Source: an uncultured archaeon (lineage in GTDB: Archaea > Asgardarchaeota > Jordiarchaeia > Jordiarchaeales > Jordiarchaeaceae). Taken from it: 28,609 nt of DNA. Numbering within the stretch: position 1 is the first letter of the stretch; every line of letters begins with the position of its first letter. The notes beneath the pieces are model-generated. The model was not told the origin of the DNA. It worked only from the letters and a program-made list of their open reading frames with translations, and did not search any database. The position numbers were made by a program, and so were the translations under genes. Positions 5,641 through 19,188 of this stretch are shown here, one piece after another. The stretch is from assembly GCA_964510585.1 (NCBI GenBank), contig CAZECW010000071.1:1-28609 (forward strand). Reading direction: 5' to 3'.

Positions 5641-5931
5641 TTATTGTGGTGGCTTATTTTTCTCCGAGCTTAACGCAACTGTGTCTATGATATGTCTTTT
5701 TTCCTTGCCTAAAGGAGTTTCTGGAAGATAAGCCCCACCCGTAAAGGTATGTCCACATTTTCTGCAGGTCCATACTCCAGTAGACACTCGTCTAACCGCT
5801 TTAGTTGCACACCGGGGACATTTATGAAAGGTACTCAGTCCTTCCAAGATAGTTTTTACACGCTTTCTCACCTTTGTACCATATCTTGCTCCAAACCTAC
5901 CAGTAATACCTACTTTCTTAGTTCTCGGCAT
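5641..5931 (-). CDS. rpl37ae: Ribosomal protein L37ae (eL43)
   Basis: KKVGITGRFGARYG, CPRC...GVWTCRKC zinc ribbon, FTGGAY. Confidence 0.97.
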   Translation of the reverse strand: MPRTKKVGITGRFGARYGTKVRKRVKTILEGLSTFHKCPRCATKAVRRVSTGVWTCRKCGHTFTGGAYLPETPLGKEKRHIIDTVALSSEKNKPPQ

Positions 5932-6752
5932 TATGAGACCTCCTGCCTCTTTAAGATTGGTAGAATATATTTTTCTCTAAGTTCTTTTGTAATATCTCTA
6001 GCTATATCTATGGCCCTGTAAATATCTTGTTGGGTTAGGGCTCCACGCTCTCCTTTTTGGACGGCTACTAGATTACCGTTCGCATCATAAACAATGGTAA
6101 TTCTACAATCCATAACGTTTTCTTCCTCTTCTATGGGATCCACACAGAGTTGGTCGCCTATTTTTGCGAGGGTCAATGAAACCGGTATGTTGGTTACAGG
6201 TAATGGCATTTTTTCACTTAGCAATTTTACCTTTCCATTCTCAACTTCGGTTTTTGGAAGCATAGTGGTAAGTAAAGCACAAACACCAGCTAGAGAAGAA
6301 GCGTCAAATAGATTCCCACCGTGATCAATTATATATATGTCCACGAAAAGAATCCAAACCTTTTCATTGGGAATTATGCAGAGTTTGTCCACATCTACCA
6401 TTTTGGATTCACGGATACCCCTGTCAACAACTCTTGCGAGTTCGACTGCCTCTTCGCTGGGTGGTCCTGATTCAAAATAGGGAGAAGCCATTGGTATAAA
6501 CTCTGCAGCAACAGTTACGACACCCGAGTTAGGAGTATCGGGGTAGGGGGTTCCAATTTCTGCACTTACCCCCACGATAACCTTTGTGTTACCAATAGTT
6601 ACCCTAGCAGAGCCACTGGCTTTCTCCACCACTCCGGTTTCAATAGTTATCGGACGTACCTCTCTTAATCCACGGCCGTCCACTCTCTTTTCTCTAGCTA
6701 CAATTGATCTAATGTACTTTGATTCAATTTCAGAGATAAGACTATGAGGCAT
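5931..6752 (-). CDS. rrp42: Exosome complex component Rrp42
   Basis: RVDGRGLREVRPI, ASGSARVTIGNT, ELARVVDRGIRES. Start set at ATG 6752 (MPHSLISE) just after the rrp41 stop; the ORF-track start 6812 would overlap rrp41. Confidence 0.95.
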   Translation of the reverse strand: MPHSLISEIESKYIRSIVAREKRVDGRGLREVRPITIETGVVEKASGSARVTIGNTKVIVGVSAEIGTPYPDTPNSGVVTVAAEFIPMASPYFESGPPSEEAVELARVVDRGIRESKMVDVDKLCIIPNEKVWILFVDIYIIDHGGNLFDASSLAGVCALLTTMLPKTEVENGKVKLLSEKMPLPVTNIPVSLTLAKIGDQLCVDPIEEEENVMDCRITIVYDANGNLVAVQKGERGALTQQDIYRAIDIARDITKELREKYILPILKRQEVS

Positions 6753-6756
6753 TTTT

Positions 6757-7533
6757 TCATCCCCCATTTTCCTGTTCATCTGCTTCTTCTGAAGCCTCAC
6801 CTTGGATATCAATATATTTTTGGATTAAGATTTCCCTTTGCATTTCGTAAATCTTTCGACAACCCTTTACTGCCAGTTCGTAGGCTTCGATGAATTCCTC
6901 TCTGGTCATTATACCATCCATCTGTAATAGTGTAGTTAGTCCTTTGCGAGGCATTATGGCAACAGGTAAGTCCGCCTGGCCATTTTTATCTTCCAAATCA
7001 CTTAGATCCAAAGCGATTTTACCATCTATCTTTCCAGCGGCAACAGCAGATACCAAATCCCGCAAGGGAATTCCAGCGTCCGCTAAGGCTAGGGAAGCAG
7101 CGGTTATACTTGAACATCTGGTACCTCCATCCGCTTGGATTACCTGTATATAAACATCTATGGAAGCCCTGGGATAGTATTTTAGAAAAACTGCGGGAGC
7201 AAGAGCCTCCGTTATAACTTTTGAAAGTTCTGTTTCTCTGCGGGATGGCGCTGGGCTTTTTCTCTCCTCTACAGAAAAGGTAGCCATCCTATAAATACAC
7301 TGTAGTAGGGCTTCATCAGGTTGTGCAAGGTGGCGTGGATGTAATTCCCGCGGGCCATAAACTGCTGCGAGAATCTTACTTTTTCCCTGTTCAATGTATG
7401 CAGAGCCATCTGCTCTTGCCAGAACTCCGACTTCTAGTTTAATGGGTCGAAGTTCATCCAATCTTCTTCCGTCAAGTCTCAAATTGTCTTCATTTAGTAA
7501 CTTTATCTGCGAAGGAAAATGAAAATCTTCCAT
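6757..7533 (-). CDS. rrp41: Exosome complex exonuclease Rrp41
   Basis: [37 protein letters not shown], catalytic DLSDLED. Start set at ATG 7533 after a GGTGAT SD. Confidence 0.96.
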
Positions 7534-7551
7534 TACGATCACCAACAAGAT

Positions 7552-8229
7552 TTACTTATGAATTAACTCCCTTACTCTATCAGTTAAACCAGAGGTGTGG
7601 GCCTCCCGTTCAATCTGTCTTATAGCTTTAATAACCCTCTCCTCGTCTTCGAAACTCTTTCCAGAAACCCAAACAACACCATTCTGACCAATAACAATCT
7701 GACATCCTGTTTCCTTTTTAATCATATTTATCATTGAACCCTTCCGCCCGATTAAACGCGGAATCTTCGTGGGTAAAATATTTACTAGGTATCCGCCTTG
7801 AAGTTTGCCAAGTCCCCGTTCTTTTGTGGTAAGCAGAGGCGCCCGCGTTCGATCAAATGCCATTATCTTCGCAACTAGCGTATCTCCTACATCAAAATAC
7901 CTGCGAAGGTCTTCTTTTAATGGATCCATATGCCTTTCAAAAATGTTTACCGGATGCATTGTAGCTTGGTATGGTGAATTTATGTCAATTCTCCATGAAG
8001 TCATCTTTACATCTATTACCTTTCCAATAACCACATCACCAACTTTTGGAATGTACGCTCCTTCGAAAGCAACAACTTGCACAACTTTGCCCTTCGCCTC
8101 TACCAAGCCTACTACAGAAGAGTAGATACAATTTCCTTCCCTAAACGTACCTTCGCCAGGCTTATAACCTCCCTCTGCGAGTAACTCGCCAGGTACCACA
8201 ATCTGTCTATTTTTAAAATATAATGTCAA
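7552..8229 (-). CDS. rrp4: Exosome RNA-binding protein Rrp4
   Basis: VVPGELL N-domain, S1 domain (YIPKVGDVVIGKV), KH domain (PRLIGRKGSMI...IGQNG), AHTSGLTDR. Confidence 0.96.
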   Translation of the reverse strand: MTLYFKNRQIVVPGELLAEGGYKPGEGTFREGNCIYSSVVGLVEAKGKVVQVVAFEGAYIPKVGDVVIGKVIDVKMTSWRIDINSPYQATMHPVNIFERHMDPLKEDLRRYFDVGDTLVAKIMAFDRTRAPLLTTKERGLGKLQGGYLVNILPTKIPRLIGRKGSMINMIKKETGCQIVIGQNGVVWVSGKSFEDEERVIKAIRQIEREAHTSGLTDRVRELIHK

Positions 8230-8242
8230 AAAGAAACCCCCT

Positions 8243-8965
8243 TTATTCTTTGATAAATGTCACTTGTGCTTTACCCTTAGTTTGATTATTTATTGTTTCT
8301 ACAAATTTACCTCTAAGCCCTGCAGGAATCTCCAATTGGGCAATCCATGAGCCGTCACTTTGCCATTCTTGTTTGGTAACTGTTCCGAAACGTTCCACTA
8401 TGCTATATCCCTTACCTGAAAAATCAGGTGGAAACTTGACAGCCAGTTTTAAGAGTTCCATTCTTATAGGTATTATTGGCTGAAGCATTTTTAATATGTC
8501 TTTTGCTTGCTCTTCGGGGCTTCTCCACAAGTCGATTTGAACTTTTGCTTCCTCCATAGCACGTTCTATTCTTGCTGGAGGATGGGGGAGGCCAGTCTGG
8601 GGGTTAATACAGTTACGGGCAAGAATATTAATTATCTGCAATTTTTTGTTGTTTATCATCTCTCTGCGTTGCTCAGTAGTGAGTTGTATAAACCCTTTCT
8701 TCAGTATGATAGGCGCGATTTTATTTATATCTAATGTTTCAAACACTTTAAGCAGTTTATCTTCGGATGCTTTAAGACCTTTATGAGCGTCTTCAAATAT
8801 GTCAAAGCTTTTCAATATCTCTGATAAGTCAATATTCTTACCGCGACGAAAGTCCCAAGCCTTGTTAGGGTCAACAAGAATCTCAAACCTTTCTCCATGG
8901 GATTCATAGCGAGCTATTACTGTATCACCTAAATCGACCCATTTCGCACCCCGAATGTCAGACAT
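8243..8965 (-). CDS. sdo1: Ribosome maturation factor SBDS/Sdo1
   Basis: [41 protein letters not shown]. Confidence 0.96.
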
Positions 8966-8976
8966 AACTATCAGTC

Positions 8977-9708
8977 CTAACTTCCACCAGACTTTCTAAC
9001 CTCATTGATATAACTTTGAACTTCGCTAGAGGATAGTCTCCTGAAAATTCTCGATTTAACATCCACCACCGCAACCTCAACTTTTGAGGGATCAAGTTCA
9101 GACTCTAACACCTGATTTAAAGCCTTGAGAGAAAGTTTAATAGAATCCTCAAGCCCCATATCCTTTTTATACTCTTTTTCCAGAACTTCTTTAGCGGCCT
9201 GAGAACCACTACCTATTGCAGCTGCCCAATAAGACCAGTAAGTCCCAGAAGGGTCGGTCATAAATAATTTGGGGCCCAGTTCATCTACACCTGCTATCAG
9301 AAAGGAAACTCCAAACGGTCTAACGCCAGCGTGCTGAGTATACATTTGTTTAGTGTCACCAATGTATCTGGTTAAACTTTCAACAGTAATAGGCTCATCA
9401 TATGTTAGACGATTAACTTGGGCCTGAATCCTAGCTTGATTTACAAGAACTCGTGCATCAGCTGTTAATCCCGCGATGGCAGTTCCAATATGTTCGTCAA
9501 TAACAAAAATTTTTTCTACACTCTCGGGGTCTTGAAGGGCTAAAACCCGCTTCTCTACTGCAAGCACCACGCCCTCTTTACATCTTACACCAATAGCGGT
9601 GGTGCCTCGACGTACGGCCTCAATTGCGTATTCCACCTGAAAAAGCCTCCCATCTGGGGAGAAAATGGTTATAGCGCGGTCATAGCCCAATCCAGGAGCG
9701 GCAAACAT
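8977..9708 (-). CDS. psmA: Proteasome subunit alpha
   Basis: [21 protein letters not shown] signature, [13 protein letters not shown]; GGAGG SD. Confidence 0.98.
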
Positions 9709-9969: not shown

Positions 9970-11244
9970 TTAACTGAGTATATCTGAGAACTTTACACTC
10001 CTTGAGTCATTTATACAGGGCATAAAGAAGAACGCAGCAGGCTCTATACCGATTTTATTTCCATTCAGTATCTCCTTTTGAATTGCTCTAATTAAACAGA
10101 TTCCCAATGGGATTTGTTTAATTGAGTAGTTTGCGAAAAGTGCCGATGTGAAAAGCCGGCCCTGCCTTACCAAAAATTGTATAACCAGAGGGTTTAAATC
10201 ATATTTTTTTTCCCAAGGATTATTAGGAGTAATAACTACTCTCCTACTCAGCTTTGATTCCTCTAATTTTCTTTTAGCCAATTTTATTTGATCAATTGTA
10301 ACAGATTTCCCTTCATCCGTTTTAGCTTTGTAGAATCTAAGAAATTTTCCCAATTCCCCCTCTCCATGTAAAATTCCTTCCACTTGATGTTCAAGCTCTA
10401 CTAATTTAACGTCTACTTCCTCTAACTTAAACCCGAAATATAAATAAAATTGTCCTCCCTCTTGAGGCTCCGAATACTTTGCAAACTTGTATTCTAATTC
10501 CGATAATACCTCACGCAAATTTTGAGATCTTAAAAGTATGGGTCCAGCCAAGTTCTCATTATTGATTCGTGGATTAGAATTGGAGGTAGGTAGCGAACCG
10601 AAAAAGCTTTGTCTTAATTCATTAATTGAAGTTTCGTATATGTGTGCTGACCCCGAAATTGTGGTTATGGTGCCCAAAGCCTTTTTACCACCAAATCTAC
10701 TTGCAACTTCTGTTAAAAAAACCGTATAAATACCAGCAACATCGTCGGGATATGCTCGGGCCATATCATTACTTCTAATATATATGGTCGAATGAATTTT
10801 TGAGCCTACTTTATGAAAAAGAACAATATTAATACAGGGAGGATTAGTGCTTAAAATGTCCGTTGGTGGGTTCCAGAGCTGGGCAAAAGCTACATTTTTC
10901 CCACTACTTAACTGATTTTTAATGTAATCCAGCTGGTTAAACGTGAATCTTTTTCTCATAGCCCATCCATAGCTATATACATGTTCCCCCTTCTCAGAAC
11001 TAATATATTGGGGAATATAACTCTCAAGAAGTGTATCCTTACTCAGCCCAATATAGTTTATTGGAACAAAATTTCCACTTTGCCAATCACTTAGATGAAT
11101 CGTAGCACAAAAAGTTTCCCTAGTTTCCTGTTTTTTGTCCTCAGTTATCTCCTTTATTCCTTTTTCGAGGATTGTGTTAATGCAACTTCTCCAAGCAACA
11201 TCTATATTTCTGGCTCGAATCAAATAAGGGCCGTAGAAGCTCAT
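9970..11244 (-). CDS. Thymidylate synthase / dCMP hydroxymethylase-fold protein with two tandem TS domains
   Basis: Domain 1: YSYG, QLDYI, LWNP, PPC137, R157SND...D168, SAH201IY203, with the same C-to-R and R-to-N/D spacing as E. coli ThyA. Domain 2 (aa about 230-424) repeats the N-terminus (GPILLRSQNL vs GPYLIRARNI) and has DQI and SR334R335VVI...QFLVRQGRL. Confidence 0.85.
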   Translation of the reverse strand: MSFYGPYLIRARNIDVAWRSCINTILEKGIKEITEDKKQETRETFCATIHLSDWQSGNFVPINYIGLSKDTLLESYIPQYISSEKGEHVYSYGWAMRKRFTFNQLDYIKNQLSSGKNVAFAQLWNPPTDILSTNPPCINIVLFHKVGSKIHSTIYIRSNDMARAYPDDVAGIYTVFLTEVASRFGGKKALGTITTISGSAHIYETSINELRQSFFGSLPTSNSNPRINNENLAGPILLRSQNLREVLSELEYKFAKYSEPQEGGQFYLYFGFKLEEVDVKLVELEHQVEGILHGEGELGKFLRFYKAKTDEGKSVTIDQIKLAKRKLEESKLSRRVVITPNNPWEKKYDLNPLVIQFLVRQGRLFTSALFANYSIKQIPLGICLIRAIQKEILNGNKIGIEPAAFFFMPCINDSRSVKFSDILS

Positions 11245-11246
11245 TT

Positions 11247-12749
11247 TTACTCACAACCAAGCTTTAAAGCATAATAGGGATGGGGAGGCTTTGGGTAAAT
11301 CCCAACCGTATTTATGTTCTCGTCCGCAATTGCAGCTTCAACAGCCGCTACCTTCCTGAATATAGCCTCAGCATTTTTTATTGGACCATAAAGATTAATG
11401 TCTATTCCATAAAGGGAAGGAAGAGCATAGTCAAAAGAAAAATCCAGATTTTTTAATTCACTGTTACTCTTAGATAGCCTTGATTGCAGATTGTGGATGC
11501 CAATACATACAGGATAACCATAGCAATTCTTAAATAACCAAGCTGCATGCAAAGCACTTATTGAACCTGCCCCCAGAATAGAAACACCAGGATCAATAAT
11601 TGGCTTCGTGATTAACCCCTCCATAAATTCAATTATTTCTCTGAACCGATTGATCCTTGAAGGTAGTTTTACATCAAAGGGCAAAACTATAGAATATTCT
11701 ATCCGTCCCATTTCGCCAATCATAGCCTTTTCTCTTTTATCCACGCCGCTAACCGAATTGTATATAACTCTACCATCTAAACCCAGATCTTTAGCTACAC
11801 CCATCGCTTCTATTCTTGCTTCCAAAACTGGCGAATCAAGAATTATTGGTGAGTCTGTGATATCTGCAACAAATAAAAGGTATCTTGTTAAAGCCTCAGA
11901 AGTTTCTCCAACTATGTGTACCATTGAGGGAATTTCGTATTTTAAAGAATTCTCCTCCTGTTTCCGAATTTGCTCCTCAGCCTTAATCTTATCAAAGACG
12001 CCTTCACTATGATTAACTACCAATTTATCCCCTCTATAAAACATGGTTCCTGCTAAAACTACGGGATATTCCCCTCTCTGCCCGCCTATCTTAATCCCAC
12101 ATATATCATAAACTCTTAGTTCCCCAGTAAATATCAAGGGATTTAATAGAGATATACCCTTATCAAGAAAGCTTTTATTTTCCTCTTGAAACCGCCTTAT
12201 TCCTTCACCCCAATCATATTCCACTTTGGGTGTTAATGGAAGAATAGGCTCCTCAGGAAATGGAGATATGTTTTGCGCATTAAGTTCATTGATTATAGAC
12301 ATCAATTTTTGAACGTTTGTTTCTCCTCGTGCATCCACCACCCTAACGATTTGACTTTGAAACCTTTTAACAAATTTATTCGGGTCGTCTCCCCTGAAAT
12401 AATTTGGATGCAAAACAGGTATAGTACCCTCACTTCCGATAATTCTATAATTTTCATCAATCCCATTGTTATAGAGCGAAATGATAGTTTGCCCCGGTTC
12501 ATGGCCAACTACACGCTCACCGCAGACTATGAGAAACCTAATATTTGGGTTTGAAGCCAAATTTTGTAAAATCTTAGCTATTCCACTATTCTCCGTCTCA
12601 CAAAAACCAACAATTGCAATTTTGTCACTCAATTTGGCTAACTCTTTTGGCAAATCGTAAGACCCACACGTAACTATGGCGATGGCCGCCTTTTCGTTTA
12701 TAACAACATAATCACCAGCAACGAATGGCCACTTTGACATAAACAACAT
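11247..12749 (-). CDS. mtrAH: MtrA-MtrH fusion (corrinoid protein + methylpterin:corrinoid methyltransferase)
   Basis: N-half: WPFVAGDYVV, TENSGIAKILQNLASNPNIRFLIVCG, GH83 cobamide ligand, IIGSEGTIP (MtrA). C-half: IKIGGQRGEYPVVLAGTMFY, FDKIKAE, IILDS, LYGPIKNA, HPYY (MtrH). Start is 12749 or 12740. Confidence 0.9.
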   Translation of the reverse strand: MLFMSKWPFVAGDYVVINEKAAIAIVTCGSYDLPKELAKLSDKIAIVGFCETENSGIAKILQNLASNPNIRFLIVCGERVVGHEPGQTIISLYNNGIDENYRIIGSEGTIPVLHPNYFRGDDPNKFVKRFQSQIVRVVDARGETNVQKLMSIINELNAQNISPFPEEPILPLTPKVEYDWGEGIRRFQEENKSFLDKGISLLNPLIFTGELRVYDICGIKIGGQRGEYPVVLAGTMFYRGDKLVVNHSEGVFDKIKAEEQIRKQEENSLKYEIPSMVHIVGETSEALTRYLLFVADITDSPIILDSPVLEARIEAMGVAKDLGLDGRVIYNSVSGVDKREKAMIGEMGRIEYSIVLPFDVKLPSRINRFREIIEFMEGLITKPIIDPGVSILGAGSISALHAAWLFKNCYGYPVCIGIHNLQSRLSKSNSELKNLDFSFDYALPSLYGIDINLYGPIKNAEAIFRKVAAVEAAIADENINTVGIYPKPPHPYYALKLGCE

Positions 12750-13353: not shown

Positions 13354-14910
13354 TTACTCGTCCTTACGATTTTTATTGGAGGCCAGCATACGATTAACTG
13401 CATTGATAAGAGCCTGAACACTTGCACTTACTATATCCTCATTTGCCGCTCTAGCAGTATATAACCTATCTTTTTTGTCTTTAACTTTGACTGTAACAAA
13501 ACCCAACGCGTCCGTGCCACCAGTTATTGCTTCCAGATTATATTCAACTAGCGACATCTCCCCAAATGCCTTTACAGCCTTCTGTAAAGCGTTACAAGCT
13601 GCGTCAATTGGGCCGACTCCCAAATCCGAAACAAGTTTTTCTTCTCCACCCACATTTATTCGAACCGTAGCTGTGGGAGTAATATTCAATCCAGTGATAA
13701 CTACAAGCTCTTTTAATTTCAGAAACTGTTCCTCTTCCGATACTCTGCCAATTATGTCATCTGCAATGGCCTGCAACTCTATGTCAGTAATGCCTTTTCC
13801 TTTATCACCTAACTTTTTGATACGCTTCAGTATCTCTTCCAACTGTTCATTAGAATATATGTAGCCGTAACTATCCAGCTTAGCTTTTAGAGAGTGTTTC
13901 CCAGTATGTTTTCCAATTGCTATAGATGAAAGCGAAATTTCTTCCTTACTTCTCTTTCTTCCTATTAGTTCTGGAGAGAACGGTTCATAGGTTCTGGGGT
14001 CTTGCAAAACAGCATGAGCATGTATTCCACTTTCATGACGAAAGGCATTTTCTCCAATAATCGCCCTGTTGGGTGGAATTTTTATACCGCTTAAATTCTC
14101 AATGAGCTTTGATGTCTCGAAAATATACTCCGTTTTTATGTTTGTTTTAATCCCATAAAGAACAGCTAATGCCATAGCAACTTCTTCTAAAGAAGCGTTC
14201 CCCGCCCTTTCTCCTATACCGTTGACTGTGACATGAACCTGCTTGGCTCCCATCTCTATAGCGGCTAAAGAATTAGCCACTGATAAACCAAAATCGTCAT
14301 GTGTGTGCGCCGATATTACTGTATCACTATCCGCAACGCCACCCAATTCTTTTACTAGATACGCGTAAGCTCGGGGGGTTGCGCATCCCACCGTGTCTGG
14401 TATATTAATTACATCAGCACCCGCCTTAACGACCTCTCGATAAACCTCTTTTAGGAAGTCCAAGTCACTTCTAGTAGCGTCCTCGGCGGAGAATTCAACT
14501 TTTAACCAGTGCTCTTTAGCGTGCTCAACCGTTTCAACTGCACTGTTCAGGACTTGTTCCCGCGTCATTCTAAGTTTTTCCTTCATATGCAAATCTGAAG
14601 TGGCTATAAAGATATGTATCCGATCAACACCACAATCAAGAGCCAAATCTACTTCTTTTAGATTGGTTCTAGCTAGTGAACAAATCTCGGGATCTAAATC
14701 TAATTTAGCTATTTCACGTATAGCCTCTTCTTCACCCCTTGAAACTATAGCCATTCCTGCTTCAATAACATCTACACCCAATTTTGCGAGCTGCTCCGCA
14801 ATAGTTTTTTTCTCATTAATAGTGAAGGAAACACCAGGTGTCTGTTCGCCATCACGCATTGTTGTATCAAAAAACAATACCTCATCAGGTAGGGTTAATT
14901 CTTTAGACAC
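13354..14910 (-). CDS. 2-isopropylmalate synthase / (R)-citramalate synthase family (LeuA/CimA)
   Basis: DTTMRDGEQTPG, FSAEDATR, PDTVG, HTHDDFG, NGIGERAGNA, FRHESGIH and C-terminal allosteric domain (GVGPIDAA...DALG). LeuA vs CimA cannot be resolved by eye. Confidence 0.92.
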   Translation of the reverse strand: MSKELTLPDEVLFFDTTMRDGEQTPGVSFTINEKKTIAEQLAKLGVDVIEAGMAIVSRGEEEAIREIAKLDLDPEICSLARTNLKEVDLALDCGVDRIHIFIATSDLHMKEKLRMTREQVLNSAVETVEHAKEHWLKVEFSAEDATRSDLDFLKEVYREVVKAGADVINIPDTVGCATPRAYAYLVKELGGVADSDTVISAHTHDDFGLSVANSLAAIEMGAKQVHVTVNGIGERAGNASLEEVAMALAVLYGIKTNIKTEYIFETSKLIENLSGIKIPPNRAIIGENAFRHESGIHAHAVLQDPRTYEPFSPELIGRKRSKEEISLSSIAIGKHTGKHSLKAKLDSYGYIYSNEQLEEILKRIKKLGDKGKGITDIELQAIADDIIGRVSEEEQFLKLKELVVITGLNITPTATVRINVGGEEKLVSDLGVGPIDAACNALQKAVKAFGEMSLVEYNLEAITGGTDALGFVTVKVKDKKDRLYTARAANEDIVSASVQALINAVNRMLASNKNRKDE

Positions 14911-16510: not shown

Positions 16511-16801
16511 ATGTGTGTAAAGAAGCTATTAGTATTTACACAAGTGAATTGCCCTAACTGTCCAACAATGAAAAAGATTACCTTAGAAGTGGGCAAAAAG
16601 CTAAACATACCCGTAGAATTGGTAGATATCACAAATGGTGTACCAGAGTCTTTAGAATTCGATTTACTACAAAATCAAATTTACATTTCATCAACTCCTT
16701 CCGTAGTATTGGTAAACGAAGATGGGTCAATTAGGGAATTAGTGTTGGGAGAAATTATCTATCATGAAGAATTAGAGAGGCGAATATTTAACCAAGAGTG
16801 A
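16511..16801 (+). CDS. Thioredoxin/glutaredoxin-like protein (NrdH-like)
   Basis: CPNC redox motif near the N-terminus, STP cis-Pro motif; stop overlaps the nrdD ORF start (GTGA). Confidence 0.85.
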   Translation: MCVKKLLVFTQVNCPNCPTMKKITLEVGKKLNIPVELVDITNGVPESLEFDLLQNQIYISSTPSVVLVNEDGSIRELVLGEIIYHEELERRIFNQE

Positions 16802-19188
16802 TTGCTATGTCTAACTCCAGTCATTCATCAAAAAAGAGGGAAGAGCTCCCTTTGGAACCCGAAAGCAATGGAGACTTTATCCACTCCTTACTACCCCCCG
16901 TGAGGACTTCGAGGGGTACAATCGAGAACTTTGATGTTTCTAAAATAATTAAAAGTCTTGTTAAAGAAACAGGAATCGAAAAAGAGAAGGCTGCTGAGGT
17001 AGCAAAAAGAATTGTACAACGAATCATATCCTCTAATATCCAATGGCTTTCAAGTCCCATGATACGGGAAATGGCCTGCTCAGTACTAGCCGAAATGGGT
17101 ATGGTTGAGGAAAGAAAGCGGTATACCAGAATTGGTGTGCCGATTTATGACCTAAACGAGATGATTGTTAATCCACTCAAGCATACTTGGAATGCAAACT
17201 TACAGATAAATCCCGAAACTATTGCTAAAATAGTTTATGACAAAGTTATGTCCGAACACACTTACCTAACATTACCCGGATATTTAGAAGTTGAGGTTCC
17301 CTCTGGGAAAACTTTAAGATTCACAACCAACATAGCCGACGCTCACTTAATGGGTGACAACTATCACAAAGATAGGGAATACACCAGCATAAGAGATTAC
17401 TGCGCATCATGGGATCCCAGACTATTTATGGTTTTAGGATTAGAGCCAGATGGGCTGCAGGGCGCTCACTCTTCAAGCGCTGGGCCTGCCAAACACCTAA
17501 TAGTTTTTACAAACCATGCTGCAATATGGCTTGCCTCGTGGCAAAGTAATATGTCTGGAGGCCAAGGATTTCACAATTGGATGGAGTCAATTGCCTGGTA
17601 CCTAAAAGAATTAAAACAAGAAGAACTCACAAGGGCGGCACAAAACTTAGTATCCAGTATGAACCCTGCTACCTTAAACCTTAATGAAGCTTTATACGCA
17701 AAATTCAGCCAGATCCCCAAGGAGATAATAGATTCCATAGTGGCTTACACTATGAGAGTTTTTTATGAGCGTGAAGTGGAACAAGCTTGCCAACACACAC
17801 CTTTTATCGCTACTCAACAGTATGTTGCCCGTGGTGGCCAAGTGCCCTTCACTTCCATTGATATTGGCCCTGGTATAAAAAAGGAATTTATGGATGAGCC
17901 AGTAATCATGCCCGGCGGCAAAGTTAGTGAACGCTATGTTTATGGAGATTTTGTTGAAGAAGTTAAAAAATACTTTATAACTCTGATGAAAACAATGTAT
18001 AACGGCGATAGGCACGGTAAACTTTTCAATTATCCAAAGATTAACATAGAACTTCGCGAAGAATGGATGAAGCCTGAGTTTGAGGAGGCCTATATCTGGG
18101 CTGCAAAGTTAACCGCTAAGTACGGTCTTCCCTATTTTGTAAACTACCTCAATTGGAGAAGAAAAATCGTTGGCGGGTGCGTATCCTGCTGTTCCCATAC
18201 TTGGGCAGCAGACACTCCAGAACAAAAGGAGGAATACCTCACAGGAAATGCAGTGTTCGGCGCGATTCAAATGGATACTCCCAACCCTGTTGCTAGTGCT
18301 GCCAGAACTTTTAAACAGGACGAGAGTAAGTTTTTCGAAGACTTTACACAAATAATAAATAATGTGACTATACCAAGCCTTCTAAACCGATATAACATAA
18401 TTAAAAGAATTAAAAAACTTGGGCTAGCTCCACTATACAATGTTAAACGTCCAAATGGAAAAGATATGATTATTCCTGAAGAGCGGAAGCTTCTTATAGG
18501 AACCATCGGTTTCGCTGAAATGACCGAAATAGTGGTCGGTTACCCACTTTGGCATGAAGAGGGATTGAAATTTGCATTAAAGGTTATAAAAACAATGCAG
18601 GCACTGGCTGATGAGTGGTCAGAGGAAACTGGGCTCTCCATACAGATAACTAGGACACCTGCTGAGTCGGCTGCTGGTAGACTTGCTAAAATAATGTATG
18701 AACGGTATCCTGAAATTCGACCGTTTCTTAGAGGTAGTTATCCAAATGTTTATCTGACGAACTCGGTTCACCAGCCGGTAGACGCAGATATACCGTTATC
18801 TGAAAGAATAAAGAAGGAAGCAATGTTTGCTCCGCTCCTTGGAGGAGGCTTCCTTCAGCACATTTTCTTGGACGATGCTTATCCGGATCCTGAAGCCCTA
18901 TGGAAATTCATTCAAAAAATAGCCAGAAACACTCTTACTGCTTATTTTGATTTCACAGTGGATATGTGGACTTGTAGCAGTTGCCACAGTCAGGGGCGAA
19001 TGGATTGGAAACAGAACCAGTTCAATTCCGTAGAGGAACTCTTAGACTTTAAATGCCCGAAGTGTGGGAGCCCAAATGCCGAAATTCTTTCAAGAATAAC
19101 GGGATACCTGCAAGGGCTGAAAGGAACTTGGAATGATCCCAAAAAGCAAGAATTTCTAGAACGCAGAAGGTATAACCTAAATATTTAG
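16798..19188 (+). CDS. nrdD: Anaerobic (class III) ribonucleoside-triphosphate reductase with N-terminal ATP cone
   Basis: ATP cone (VRTSRGTIENFDVSKI), RGGQVPFTS, FNYP, SCC finger loop, IGTIGFAE, RTPAESAAGRLA, YLTNS, CSSC/CPKC zinc site, glycyl-radical SRITG769YL. Start may be ATG 16807. Confidence 0.95.
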   Translation: MIAMSNSSHSSKKREELPLEPESNGDFIHSLLPPVRTSRGTIENFDVSKIIKSLVKETGIEKEKAAEVAKRIVQRIISSNIQWLSSPMIREMACSVLAEMGMVEERKRYTRIGVPIYDLNEMIVNPLKHTWNANLQINPETIAKIVYDKVMSEHTYLTLPGYLEVEVPSGKTLRFTTNIADAHLMGDNYHKDREYTSIRDYCASWDPRLFMVLGLEPDGLQGAHSSSAGPAKHLIVFTNHAAIWLASWQSNMSGGQGFHNWMESIAWYLKELKQEELTRAAQNLVSSMNPATLNLNEALYAKFSQIPKEIIDSIVAYTMRVFYEREVEQACQHTPFIATQQYVARGGQVPFTSIDIGPGIKKEFMDEPVIMPGGKVSERYVYGDFVEEVKKYFITLMKTMYNGDRHGKLFNYPKINIELREEWMKPEFEEAYIWAAKLTAKYGLPYFVNYLNWRRKIVGGCVSCCSHTWAADTPEQKEEYLTGNAVFGAIQMDTPNPVASAARTFKQDESKFFEDFTQIINNVTIPSLLNRYNIIKRIKKLGLAPLYNVKRPNGKDMIIPEERKLLIGTIGFAEMTEIVVGYPLWHEEGLKFALKVIKTMQALADEWSEETGLSIQITRTPAESAAGRLAKIMYERYPEIRPFLRGSYPNVYLTNSVHQPVDADIPLSERIKKEAMFAPLLGGGFLQHIFLDDAYPDPEALWKFIQKIARNTLTAYFDFTVDMWTCSSCHSQGRMDWKQNQFNSVEELLDFKCPKCGSPNAEILSRITGYLQGLKGTWNDPKKQEFLERRRYNLNI

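What the first reader, a model, noticed from the sequence alone, without database searches (positions are those of the whole stretch)
9970..11244. Single-chain TS pseudo-dimer with complementary active-site loss
Seen: domain 2 starts 229 aa after domain 1 (GPYLIRARNI vs GPILLRSQNL), after a Ser/Asn/Pro linker. Domain 1 has W124, C137, R157-S-N-D and H201-x-Y203, but N117-V118 where ThyA has R126-R127. Domain 2 has S-R334-R335 (nt 10240-10245), no catalytic Cys, and ANYS in place of RSxD. Known: ThyA is an obligate homodimer and the Arg-Arg pair binds phosphate in the partner subunit's site. Inference: one chain forms one composite active site, freeing the dead half for another role such as docking MtrAH.
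Basis: partly seen in the sequence, partly recalled or inferred. Interest (0 to 1): 0.8.

Follow-up and report, generated by a model that had tools for sequence, protein, structure and literature searches.

The report
Single-chain two-domain thymidylate synthase
A hot-spring Asgard archaeon encodes its thymidylate-synthase-type enzyme as one chain of two fused, specialised copies that appear to share a single active site, always next to a vitamin-B12 methyl-carrier protein that it is predicted to bind, which hints at an unusual way of making the DNA base thymine.

Summary
ORF 9970-11244(-) encodes 424 aa made of two thymidylate-synthase (TS) folds.

- **N-half:** it keeps Cys137, R157-S-x-D160, Y92 and H201-x-Y203 in all 28 aligned homologues. 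It lacks the Arg-Arg pair that ThyA lends to its partner subunit.
- **C-half:** it is a TS fold (Z 15-16; profile E 5e-14). It has lost the Cys, RSxD and HxY, yet S333-R334-R335 is invariant.
- **Model:** the whole-chain model is confident (pLDDT 91.9, pTM 0.93). I could not measure the Arg-to-Cys137 distance, because no coordinates were available.

I read it as a natural single-chain pseudo-dimer with one composite site.

- **Link to MtrAH:** in 18 of 18 Asgard genomes carrying the C-half, the MtrA-MtrH corrinoid fusion lies directly upstream. A 1:1 complex is predicted (ipSAE 0.92, best control 0.00). It forms through both N-terminal strands and the linker, not through the dead site.
- **Role:** it is the only TS-family gene in the closed genomes searched, and ThyX was not found in its five families. 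It is probably their thymidylate synthase.
- **Open questions:** invariant Asp168 sits where ThyA has the uracil-specifying Asn. The one-carbon donor is unknown; corrinoid methyl transfer is about 35-40% likely.

The scan found this architecture before on another genome (e1-3795747). I found no paper describing it.

The parts
9970..11244 (-). Whole ORF of the tandem TS-fold protein (424 aa plus stop), P0001
10606..11244 (-). Domain 1 (residues 1-213): the catalytically equipped short-type TS fold
   Evidence: TIGR03283 E 2e-27. VIA Z 19-22, rmsd 1.8-2.6 A over 199-204 residues, to TS, MilA and AfhB. hhalign E 7e-48 to short TS.
10834..10836 (-). Cys137 codon, the catalytic nucleophile (P-P-C, 28/28)
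10891..10896 (-). N117-V118, the position of the ThyA trans Arg-Arg pair; variable in the family
10765..10776 (-). R157-S158-N159-D160, the phosphate- and cofactor-binding RSxD motif (R, S and D 28/28)
10741..10743 (-). Asp168 (28/28), at the position of the uracil-specifying Asn177 of E. coli ThyA (Asn229 in L. casei)
   Evidence: HMMER alignments to solved TS place this Asp opposite the TS Asn. The short TSs and the MtrA-like fusions have Asn 11 residues after the Arg. Composition.
10636..10644 (-). H201-I-Y203 (H and Y 28/28)
10546..10605 (-). Ser/Asn/Pro-rich linker (residues 214-233). It has low confidence in the monomer model and is predicted to be a main contact with MtrH.
   Evidence: pLDDT 55-73. 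Interface residues 214-226 and 231.
9973..10545 (-). Domain 2 (residues 234-424): a TS fold without its own catalytic residues
10240..10248 (-). S333-R334-R335 (28/28), the retained trans Arg-Arg motif
   Evidence: A natural variant, 10243 C>T, is synonymous.
10186..10188 (-). Leu353 at the position of the catalytic Cys in domain 2 (L/I/V across the family)
11245..11246 (-). Two-base gap between the MtrAH stop (TAA) and the TS start (ATG), which indicates an operon
11247..12749 (-). MtrA-MtrH fusion gene (500 aa, P0002), the conserved and predicted physical partner
   Evidence: Pfam MtrA E 3e-38 and MtrH E 1e-57. Synteny. Complex.
12225..12749 (-). MtrA (corrinoid-binding) domain, residues ~1-175, with invariant Glu53, His83 (12501-12503) and G108-T-I-P111
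   Evidence: Invariant columns. Matches 5l8x MtrA at E 2e-29. His84, Glu54 and the GAIPF motif are described in PMC4915002.
11250..12131 (-). MtrH (methyl-pterin:corrinoid methyltransferase) TIM-barrel domain, residues ~207-500. Its alpha-to-beta loop face is the predicted docking surface.

Best explanation
The gene encodes a natural single-chain pseudo-dimer of the short, methanogen-type thymidylate synthase fold.

Origin (shown by tree): one old tandem duplication was followed by division of labour between the halves.

Division of labour (shown by sequence):
- The N-half keeps the whole cis set of catalytic residues: Cys137, Arg157/Ser158/Asp160, Tyr92 and His201/Tyr203. It has lost the Arg-Arg pair that a ThyA subunit lends to its partner.
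- The C-half has lost every cis residue. It keeps the TS fold and an invariant Ser-Arg-Arg.

Composite site (inferred): by analogy with the ThyA dimer, Arg334/Arg335 reach across the pseudo-twofold interface to bind the nucleotide phosphate at the Cys137 site. The chain would then have exactly one composite active site, and the second site is dead twice over.

Partner (co-encoding shown; complex predicted):
- The asymmetric body and its linker form a 1:1 complex with the co-transcribed MtrA-MtrH corrinoid fusion.
- They dock on the non-catalytic face of the MtrH barrel through the equivalent N-terminal strands of both halves and the linker.

Role (inferred): this is the only TS-family gene in the closed genomes searched, ThyX was not found in its five families, and a dCTP deaminase is present. 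The chain is therefore most likely the cell's dTMP-forming enzyme acting on dUMP (about 70%).

One-carbon supply (inferred, about 35-40%): I favour MtrH loading a methyl from methyl-H4MPT onto the MtrA cob(I)amide. The C5 carbanion of Cys137-activated dUMP would then take the methyl from methyl-Co(III), so no dihydropterin is made.
For: **Two TS folds in one chain**
- N-half: Z 19-22, rmsd 1.8-2.6 A over 199-204 residues.
- C-half folded alone: Z 15.0-16.3, rmsd 2.5-3.2 A over 173-180 residues. Foldseek E 5.6e-7. hhalign 98.2%, E 5.4e-14.
- Whole chain: pLDDT 91.9, pTM 0.93.

**Complementary residue pattern**
- It is invariant in 28 sequences.
- The N-half has mean pairwise identity 0.59 and the C-half 0.37, yet SRR is 28/28.
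- The only variant seen in the R334 codon in related populations is synonymous.
- R126'/R127' of ThyA contact dUMP in the opposite subunit. An engineered WT:R126E/R127E heterodimer has one working site with wild-type affinity (PMC5981203).

**Pseudo-twofold packing**
- Equivalent residues 8-10 and 234-237 touch the same MtrH residues 321-323. They must therefore lie side by side, as expected near a dyad.

**Single origin**
- All C-halves form one group (SH-aLRT 99) whose internal topology mirrors that of the N-halves. Their branches are 2-3 times longer.

**Partner**
- MtrAH sits directly upstream, amid otherwise different neighbours.
- In 18 of 18 sampled Asgard genomes with the C-half, an MtrA hit in a frame of mostly 505-586 aa (408 aa in fragmented G023) lies about 1.4-2.4 kb upstream on the same contig and strand.
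- At least 15 contigs are shared between the two homologue lists.
- Predicted complex: ipSAE 0.92, best of 3 controls 0.00. That mark was reached by 58 of 80 solved complexes and 2 of 110 mismatched pairs; the counts hold only roughly because my own alignments were used. The runs agree in at least 88% of contacts, and partner pLDDT is at least 90.
- To my knowledge no TS-MtrH complex has been solved, so a pass from memory is unlikely.

**Role**
- It is the sole PF00303 hit in G001-G003 and in G041, G026, G044 and G009. The second hit in G073 is the C-half of the same gene.
- No ThyX was found in G000-G003.
- ThyX was found in 117 of 251 sampled Asgard genomes, but in 0 of 20 from the five families that carry the tandem TS.
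- A dCTP deaminase is present, and no PF00383 deaminase was found in the own genome, which is 96% complete.

**Corrinoid route**
- The MtrA domain keeps His83, Glu53 and the GTIP loop invariant.
- It is the only MtrA in the genome.
- Published work on this fusion says the fate of its methyl group is unknown (PMC11291895; PMC9635834).
Against: - The distance from R334/R335 to the Cys137 pocket was not measured, because no coordinates are available.
- The direct similarity between the two halves is not significant.
- Some single-domain short TSs also lack a full Arg-Arg pair. One subclade keeps one Arg in the N-half.
- Invariant Asp168 replaces the Asn that specifies uracil in ThyA, which points to a cytosine nucleotide or to altered chemistry.
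- Asp160, whose ThyA counterpart helps open the methylene-folate ring (title of PDB 1bjg), is retained. That fits a classical methylene-pterin cofactor.
- The predicted interface contains no MtrA-domain residue and no active-site residue.
- The MtrA-like domain of the MtrA-like-TS-DUF4346 fusions lacks the corrinoid His. The TS/MtrA-fold association therefore does not always imply corrinoid chemistry.
- Everything rests on sequence and prediction. There is no biochemical evidence.
Confidence: 0.78

Rival explanations
1. Classical chemistry in a new body. The pseudo-dimer is an ordinary ThyA-type enzyme that uses methylene-H4MPT (or methylene-folate) and a hydride from the pterin. MtrAH is a partner for some other reason, such as cofactor handling, regulation or scaffolding.
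For: - Every residue that short TSs share for cofactor and nucleotide handling is kept in the N-half, including Asp160, Tyr92 and His201/Tyr203.
- All characterised one-carbon-transferring TS-fold enzymes among the structural hits use methylene-folate: TS, MilA and dCMP hydroxymethylase.
- The genome has an H4MPT pathway enzyme, Mch.
- No MtrA-domain or active-site residue lies in the predicted interface.
Against: - It gives no reason why a methyl-pterin:corrinoid methyltransferase, fused to an intact corrinoid protein, is strictly co-encoded (18 of 18) and predicted to bind.
- No PF00186 DHFR was found in the own genome, which is 96% complete.
- Asp168 stays unexplained.
Confidence: 0.35
2. 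The enzyme acts on a cytosine nucleotide. It would be a dCMP or CMP C5-methylase or hydroxymethylase, and not the thymidylate synthase.
For: - Asp168 is invariant at the position that is Asn in ThyA.
- PDB entries among the hits show the TS N229D mutant bound to dCMP (1njc).
- The best structural matches of both halves are dCMP- or CMP-acting TS-fold enzymes: AfhB 9iqu, Z 22.3 (rmsd 2.2 A, 199 aligned) and Z 16.3 (rmsd 2.7 A, 174 aligned); MilA, Z 20.
- From my own knowledge, T4 dCMP hydroxymethylase has Asp at this position.
Against: - It is the only TS-family gene, and no ThyX was found, in closed or near-complete genomes of its families. dTMP synthesis would then have no candidate enzyme.
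- No dCMP/cytidine deaminase family hit that could convert 5-methyl-dCMP to dTMP was found in G000, G001 or G003.
- A dCTP deaminase that leads to dUMP is present.
- Thymidylate kinase genes lie near the pair in L003.
Confidence: 0.2
3. The C-terminal half is only a structural or regulatory appendage. It contributes nothing to the active site, and the chain must still pair with a second chain to work.
For: - The Arg-to-site distance was not measured.
- Some short single-domain TSs do without a full Arg-Arg pair.
Against: - SRR is invariant in a fast-evolving half that has lost all its other TS residues.
- It is also kept in the distant tandem proteins P0121 and P0129.
- The two halves pack confidently in one chain (pTM 0.93).
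Confidence: 0.07
4. Assembly or gene-calling artefact: two neighbouring TS genes, or a chimeric contig, read as one ORF.
For: None found.
Against: - There are 45 full- or near-full-length homologues of 386-433 aa from many samples and sources.
- Contigs from independent hot-spring runs cover the gene and bridge into MtrAH.
- The same open frame occurs in 18 genomes, several of them single-contig.
Confidence: 0.01

Closest known systems
Homodimeric thymidylate synthase ThyA (E. coli, L. casei, human; PF00303)
   Same: It has the same fold in both halves. The N-half has the same catalytic Cys, RSxD, Tyr and HxY. The Ser-Arg-Arg loop is the one that in ThyA reaches into the partner's site.
   Different: - Two unlike halves sit in one chain, so at most one site can form instead of two.
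- The fold is the short form (~200 aa per half), lacking the ThyA C-terminal segment.
- Asp replaces the uracil-specifying Asn.
- It has an obligate MtrAH neighbour.
Engineered single-site ThyA heterodimers (wild type paired with an R126E/R127E subunit)
   Same: One functional composite site is formed by cis residues of one subunit and the Arg pair of the other. The engineered form binds dUMP with wild-type affinity (PMC5981203).
   Different: Those dimers are made by mixing mutant and wild-type homodimers, and they re-sort. Here evolution has fixed the asymmetry by gene fusion and has also deleted the second site's own residues.
Short 'methanogen-type' thymidylate synthase (NCBIfam TIGR03283; hit in the Methanocaldococcus jannaschii control)
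   Same: This is the nearest sequence family to the N-half (E 2e-27; hhalign E 7e-48). The size per domain and the motifs are the same.
   Different: - Those proteins have a single domain.
- They have Asn at the specificity position.
- The tandem protein scores 112 bits against the equivalog cut-off of 174.55.
MtrA-like-TS-DUF4346 fusion proteins of uncultured archaea and bacteria (~450-510 aa; uncharacterised)
   Same: - They are the nearest non-tandem relatives of the N-half.
- They also join a short TS to an MtrA-fold domain.
- One carries a thymidylate kinase domain as well (P0048).
- P0148 joins MtrA-like, DUF4346 and a tandem TS in one 877-aa chain.
   Different: - The MtrA-like domain lacks the corrinoid His/Glu and the GxIP loop.
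- There is no MtrH domain.
- The TS is a single domain with Asn.
MtrAH fusion of Atabeyarchaeia and Freyarchaeia (Valentin-Alvarado et al. 2024, PMC11291895)
   Same: It is the same protein family as the upstream gene: P0235 and P0227 come from those genomes. It is described there as a distinct Asgard fusion whose methyl acceptor is unknown.
   Different: That paper's main text does not mention the thymidylate-synthase gene that follows it ('thymidyl' occurs 0 times).
Bifunctional DHFR-TS of protozoa
   Same: A TS is physically joined to the enzyme that services its one-carbon cofactor (PDB hits).
   Different: - The partner there is a reductase that recycles dihydrofolate, and the TS remains a symmetric homodimer.
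- Here the partner is a corrinoid methyl-transfer module, encoded as a separate chain.

Membership tests
ThyA-type thymidylate synthase (PF00303 / TIGR03283) | TS alpha/beta fold | tested here: met
   N-half: Z 19-22, rmsd 1.8-2.6 A over 199-204 residues. C-half: Z 15.0-16.3, rmsd 2.5-3.2 A over 173-180 residues.
ThyA-type thymidylate synthase (PF00303 / TIGR03283) | Score above the curated family cut-offs | tested here: inconclusive
   Pfam 43.6 bits against 24.3: passes. NCBIfam equivalog TIGR03283 112 bits against 174.55: fails.
ThyA-type thymidylate synthase (PF00303 / TIGR03283) | Catalytic Cys after Pro | tested here: met
   P135-P136-C137 is 28/28 in the N-half. The C-half has L/I/V at this position.
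ThyA-type thymidylate synthase (PF00303 / TIGR03283) | Cis phosphate and cofactor motif R-S-x-D, plus Tyr (Y94) and H-x-Y | tested here: met
   R157, S158, D160, Y92, H201 and Y203 are all 28/28 in the N-half. None is kept in the C-half.
ThyA-type thymidylate synthase (PF00303 / TIGR03283) | Arg-Arg pair donated in trans to the partner's site | tested here: met
   It is present only in the C-half, where S333-R334-R335 is 28/28. It is absent or variable in the N-half. Its reach into the Cys137 site was not measured.
ThyA-type thymidylate synthase (PF00303 / TIGR03283) | Asn that reads the uracil O4/N3-H (E. coli N177) | tested here: not met
   Asp168 is 28/28, aligned opposite the TS Asn. The short TSs and the fusions have Asn.
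ThyA-type thymidylate synthase (PF00303 / TIGR03283) | Two identical subunits giving two active sites | tested here: not met
   The two halves differ, and the second lacks every cis catalytic residue. The oligomeric state of the chain itself cannot be tested here.
ThyA-type thymidylate synthase (PF00303 / TIGR03283) | Catalyses dUMP + methylene-pterin -> dTMP + dihydropterin | not testable with these tools
   There is only genomic inference: it is the sole TS-family gene, ThyX was not found, and dCTP deaminase is present.
dCMP/CMP-acting TS-fold enzymes (dCMP hydroxymethylase, MilA, AfhB) | Asp at the base-specificity position | tested here: met
   Asp168 is 28/28. That these enzymes carry Asp at this position rests on my own knowledge and on PDB titles for the N229D-dCMP complex.
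dCMP/CMP-acting TS-fold enzymes (dCMP hydroxymethylase, MilA, AfhB) | Closer in sequence or structure to these enzymes than to TS | tested here: inconclusive
   AfhB gives Z 22.3 (rmsd 2.2 A, 199 aligned) and MilA Z 20.4 (rmsd 1.9 A, 200 aligned), against TS at Z 19.4 (rmsd 2.6 A, 204 aligned). The gaps are small. Sequence profiles name only TS.
Three-part corrinoid methyltransferase system (MT1 + corrinoid protein + MT2) | MT1: methyl-pterin-binding TIM barrel of the MtrH/MtgA type | tested here: met
   PF02007 E 1e-57. Matches 8z9u MtrH at E 1.5e-41 and 6sj8 MtgA at E 1e-36.
Three-part corrinoid methyltransferase system (MT1 + corrinoid protein + MT2) | Corrinoid protein with the His lower ligand and its Glu partner | tested here: met
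   His83, Glu53 and G108-T-I-P111 are invariant in 23 sequences. They correspond to His84, Glu54 and GAIPF of MtrA (PMC4915002; matches 5l8x at E 2e-29).
Three-part corrinoid methyltransferase system (MT1 + corrinoid protein + MT2) | A co-encoded third component | tested here: met
   The tandem TS follows MtrAH in 18 of 18 genomes and. A complex is predicted: ipSAE 0.92, best of 3 controls 0.00. That mark was reached by 58 of 80 solved complexes and 2 of 110 mismatched pairs, roughly, because my own alignments were used.
Three-part corrinoid methyltransferase system (MT1 + corrinoid protein + MT2) | The third component takes the methyl from methyl-Co(III) onto its substrate | not testable with these tools
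   This is inference only. A Cys-activated pyrimidine C5 is a plausible nucleophile.

The most novel reading that the evidence does not exclude
The MtrAH / tandem-TS pair is a third mechanistic class of thymidylate synthase.
- MtrH moves the methyl of methyl-H4MPT (or methyl-folate) onto the cob(I)amide of MtrA.
- The single Cys137 site activates dUMP, whose C5 takes the methyl from methyl-Co(III).
- dTMP is made without a hydride transfer and without producing a dihydropterin.
- The fused, asymmetric TS body would exist to give one site and one unique docking surface per MtrAH.
Probability: 0.35. Interest if true: 0.95.

Novelty: new variant of a known kind. Interest (0 to 1): 0.77.

Why it matters
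- **Half-of-the-sites question.** ThyA has been the textbook obligate symmetric homodimer, with a long debate on half-of-the-sites reactivity. A natural enzyme that has fixed a single composite site in one chain shows that one site is enough. It gives a ready-made, non-re-sorting asymmetric TS for mechanistic work.
- **Archaeal methyl transfer.** The strict pairing with MtrAH offers a concrete and testable acceptor for the methyl group of the non-methanogenic MtrAH fusions. Two recent papers call the role of these fusions unclear (PMC11291895, PMC9635834).
- **Thymidylate synthesis without DHFR.** It bears on how archaea that use H4MPT and lack a PF00186 DHFR make thymidylate.
- **If the corrinoid route is real.** It would add a new class of thymidylate synthase beside ThyA and ThyX, in the archaeal group closest to eukaryotes.

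Tried and rejected
- **Direct comparison of the halves.** BLAST gave E 0.13 over 10 residues. hhalign in global mode returned a meaningless alignment. Local mode gave E 0.067. The internal repeat cannot be shown this way.
- **Literature.** Searches found nothing relevant for thymidylate synthase with MtrA, MtrH or Asgard, with corrinoid, for DUF4346, or for pseudo-dimer/pseudodimer. The pseudodimer hits concern thymidine kinases and unrelated proteins.
- **Expression.** No RNA holder was listed. Two runs labelled metatranscriptomic are probably DNA and are held only as contigs, so says nothing about transcription.
- **MtrA-like fusions as support for corrinoid chemistry.** I considered this and rejected it, because their MtrA-like domain lacks the His ligand.
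- **5-methyl-dCMP route to dTMP.** I considered methylation of dCMP followed by deamination. I down-weighted it because no PF00383 deaminase was found in G000 (96% complete), G001 or G003. One was found in G002.
- **Second TS-like gene.** I considered whether P0198 in the own genome is the real TS. No second PF00303 match was found in the closed same-genus genome G041 or in G001-G003. It looks like an accessory gene.
- **Names for distant proteins.** Cluster look-up gave no names for the distant tandem and fusion proteins.
Full report
**1. What is at the coordinates**

ORF 9970-11244 on the minus strand encodes 424 residues. It starts two bases after the stop of a 500-residue gene at 11247-12749 on the same strand. 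G5-P6 and G234-P235 are 229 residues apart. N117-V118, C137, R157-S-N-D160, H201-x-Y203 and S333-R334-R335 (nt 10240-10248) all check out.

**2. Is the C-terminal half really a thymidylate synthase (TS) copy?**

The ten-residue echo between the two N-termini is not significant by itself (E 0.13). A profile-profile comparison of the two halves gives only a short, in-register match (E 0.067). The case rests on each half's match to TS.

- The N-half matches the short methanogen-type TS model TIGR03283 at E 2e-27, and the C-half matches it at E 4e-4.
- A profile of 28 C-halves finds solved TS chains at E 9e-5, through the IDQ...SRR...NP core.
- Against a profile of 44 short TS domains, the C-half profile gives 98.2% probability, E 5.4e-14 over 92 columns. 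That alignment sets SRR on SRR, N-P-Leu on P-Cys, and A-N-Y-S on R-S-n-D.
- Folded alone, the C-half has pLDDT 92.2. It matches TS structures at Z 15.0-15.5, rmsd 2.5-3.2 A, over 173-180 of 196 residues, and at Foldseek E 5.6e-7 with TM 0.62-0.68.
- The N-half matches at Z 19-22.

For both halves the top structural match is a short phage TS-fold dCMP hydroxylase (9iqu). MilA follows for the N-half and classical TS for both.

**3. The family and the pattern**

About 45 full- or near-full-length homologues exist. All named ones come from Asgard archaea (Jord-, Frey-, Njord- and Atabeyarchaeia) at 41-78% identity. At 50% clustering the family collapses to four or five representatives.

In 28 aligned sequences the N-half keeps W-N-P, P-P-Cys137, Arg157, Ser158, Asp160, Tyr92-Gly93, His201 and Tyr203 without exception. 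The position of the ThyA Arg-Arg pair is variable.

The C-half keeps Ser-Arg-Arg without exception. At the Cys position it has Leu/Ile/Val, and nothing is conserved at the RSxD and HxY positions. Mean pairwise identity is 0.59 for the N-half, 0.37 for the C-half and 0.32 for the linker. SRR therefore stands out in a fast-evolving domain. In related hot-spring populations the only change seen in the Arg334 codon is synonymous.

In a tree, all C-halves group together (SH-aLRT 99). This includes the C-halves of three distant tandem proteins, P0121, P0129 and P0148. The branching inside the C-half group mirrors that of the N-halves, with branches two to three times longer. This fits one old duplication followed by relaxed constraint on the C-half. 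Long-branch attraction cannot be excluded.

**4. How it most likely works as a protein**

In ThyA, Arg126 and Arg127 of one subunit bind the dUMP phosphate in the other subunit's site. An engineered dimer of one wild-type and one R126E/R127E subunit has one working site with normal affinity (PMC5981203). The archaeal chain is the natural, covalent version of that design. The N-half supplies all the cis residues, the C-half supplies the Arg pair, and the reciprocal site lacks both sets.

The whole-chain model is confident about the relative placement of the halves (pLDDT 91.9, pTM 0.93). In the predicted complex, equivalent residues of the two halves (8-10 and 234-237) touch the same three MtrH residues. 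They must therefore lie side by side, as expected next to a twofold axis.

I could not do the decisive measurement of the Arg334/Arg335 to Cys137 distance, because coordinates are not exposed. A further caveat is that single-domain short TSs vary at this pair (RR, RQ, KQ, NQ, RG). Strict retention in the C-half is more telling than loss from the N-half.

**5. The partner**

The upstream gene is a fusion of MtrA, the corrinoid protein, and MtrH, the methyl-pterin:corrinoid methyltransferase. Its MtrA domain keeps His83, Glu53 and a G-T-I-P loop invariant across 23 sequences. These correspond to the cobalt ligand His84, its partner Glu54 and the GAIPF motif of MtrA (PMC4915002).

Evidence that the pair belongs together:

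- The pair is adjacent in three distant genomes whose other neighbours differ.
- In a sample of 251 Asgard genomes the C-half profile hits 18, in five families. In all 18, an MtrA hit in a frame of mostly 505-586 residues (408 in fragmented G023) lies about 1.4-2.4 kb upstream on the same contig and strand.
- The homologue lists of the two proteins share at least 15 contigs. The MtrAH clade ends where the TS family ends.
- A complex is predicted at ipSAE 0.92 with the best of three controls at 0.00. That mark was reached by 58 of 80 solved complexes and 2 of 110 mismatched pairs, and the counts hold only roughly because my own alignments were used. The runs agree in at least 88% of contacts, and partner pLDDT is at least 90.

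This supports binding but does not show it. I know of no solved TS-MtrH complex that could explain the score by memory.

The interface joins TS residues 7-23, 50-53, the linker 214-226, 231-239, 253 and 257 to MtrH residues that all lie in alpha-to-beta loops. That is the face of the barrel opposite its catalytic end. The interface includes no MtrA-domain residue and no TS active-site residue.

So the linker, disordered in the monomer model, is predicted to be a docking element. Both halves take part in docking, not the dead site alone. A symmetric homodimer could not offer such a unique, on-axis 1:1 surface. This may be why the fusion was kept.

**6. What the pair does**

The tandem gene is the only PF00303 match in the three genomes (one is a complete 2.8-Mb genome) and in G041, G026, G044 and G009. 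G041 is a closed genome of the same genus. In G073 the second match is the C-half of the same gene. None of the genomes tested has ThyX. ThyX was found in 117 of 251 sampled Asgard genomes but in 0 of 20 from the five families with the tandem TS.

The own genome is 96% complete. It has a dCTP deaminase and Mch, and no match to DHFR (PF00186) or to the dCMP/cytidine deaminase family. The simplest reading is that this protein is the cells' thymidylate synthase, acting on dUMP.

Two things do not fit a plain ThyA.

- Asp168 is invariant where ThyA has the uracil-reading Asn, whereas the short TSs and the fusion TSs have Asn. This is the signature of dCMP-acting relatives.
- A corrinoid methyl-transfer module has no role in the classical reaction.

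In a corrinoid system that has a loader (MtrH) and a carrier (MtrA), the missing part is an enzyme that passes the methyl from methyl-Co(III) to a nucleophile. A pyrimidine activated by Cys addition is such a nucleophile. I therefore give about 35-40% to a corrinoid-dependent methylation, about 35% to classical methylene-pterin chemistry with an unexplained partner, and about 20% to a cytosine substrate.

Against the corrinoid idea:

- Asp160 is retained.
- There is no MtrA contact in the model.
- The widespread MtrA-like-TS-DUF4346 fusions have lost the corrinoid His.

**7. What is known**

The MtrAH fusion of Atabey- and Freyarchaeia has been described, with the fate of its methyl group called uncertain (PMC11291895). 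The role of MtrAH outside methanogens is called unclear (PMC9635834). Neither paper's main text mentions thymidylate synthase. I found no paper on a tandem or pseudo-dimeric TS. Databases simply name these proteins thymidylate synthase.

These agree with my results but are not independent evidence.

**8. Verdict**

The finding is real, and it is not chance. It is a natural single-chain, single-site TS-fold enzyme tied to a corrinoid methyl carrier, which makes it a new variant of a known kind. The architecture is well supported (about 0.8). The composite-site geometry and the chemistry remain to be tested.

Noticed in passing
L006:1351-1983 (+), own genome contig C121:10172-10804: There is a second, single-domain short TS-like gene (P0198, 210 aa). 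It has Cys, R-S-L-D, S-A-H-I-Y and Asn at the specificity position, with K-S at the Arg-Arg position. It scores 111.7 bits on TIGR03283, below the cut-off. It lies between a gene with no family match and a QueC-like PP-loop gene. No second PF00303 match was found in the closed same-genus genome G041, so it may be an accessory or mobile nucleotide-modification gene.
   Followed up: partly
window 16798-19188 (+) and 13354-14910 (-): An anaerobic ribonucleotide reductase (NrdD with an ATP-cone) lies about 4 kb from the pair. A LeuA/homocitrate-synthase-like gene lies just upstream of MtrAH, and the same kind of gene neighbours the pair in L004.
   Followed up: no
proteins P0053-P0055, P0118, P0048 and ~95 further clusters: There is a large uncharacterised family of MtrA-like-TS-DUF4346 fusions (~450-510 aa). 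Their MtrA-like domain lacks the corrinoid His/Glu and the GxIP loop. One member also carries a thymidylate kinase domain, and some have TS-DUF4346 only.
   Followed up: partly
L008:4096-6729 (+) (P0148, 877 aa): One chain combines an MtrA-like domain, DUF4346 and a tandem TS. Its N-half has Asn-Asn-Tyr in place of Ala-His-Ile-Tyr, and its C-half has R-x-D-R in place of S-R-R.
   Followed up: partly
proteins P0121, P0129 (415-416 aa; no DNA served): A second, distant lineage of tandem TS shows the same pattern, with Cys in the N-half and SRR in the C-half. P0129 sits in an archaeal neighbourhood (diphthamide synthase, ribosomal S19/L22) without MtrAH next to it. P0129 has Asp at the specificity position and P0121 has Asn.
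   Followed up: partly
L003:9963-13158: Near the MtrAH/tandem-TS pair of this genome lie a 92-aa thymidylate-kinase fragment and a full thymidylate kinase. An HNH/RRXRR endonuclease gene separates them, so this may be a kinase gene disrupted by a mobile element.
   Followed up: no
alignment A1, proteins P0017-P0021 (432-aa subclade): In this subclade the N-half keeps one Arg (S-R-T) at the Arg-Arg position, although the C-half site is as dead as in the others.
   Followed up: no
own genome contigs C29, C208, C99 (L011-L013): There are three stand-alone MtrH genes (E 1e-85 to 4e-96) besides the fusion, but no second MtrA. They probably belong to methylotrophic corrinoid systems with other corrinoid proteins.
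   Followed up: no
window 5931-9708 (-): Directly downstream lie the proteasome alpha subunit, an SBDS-like gene and the exosome subunits Rrp4, Rrp41 and Rrp42, which form the archaeal exosome-proteasome gene cluster.
   Followed up: no
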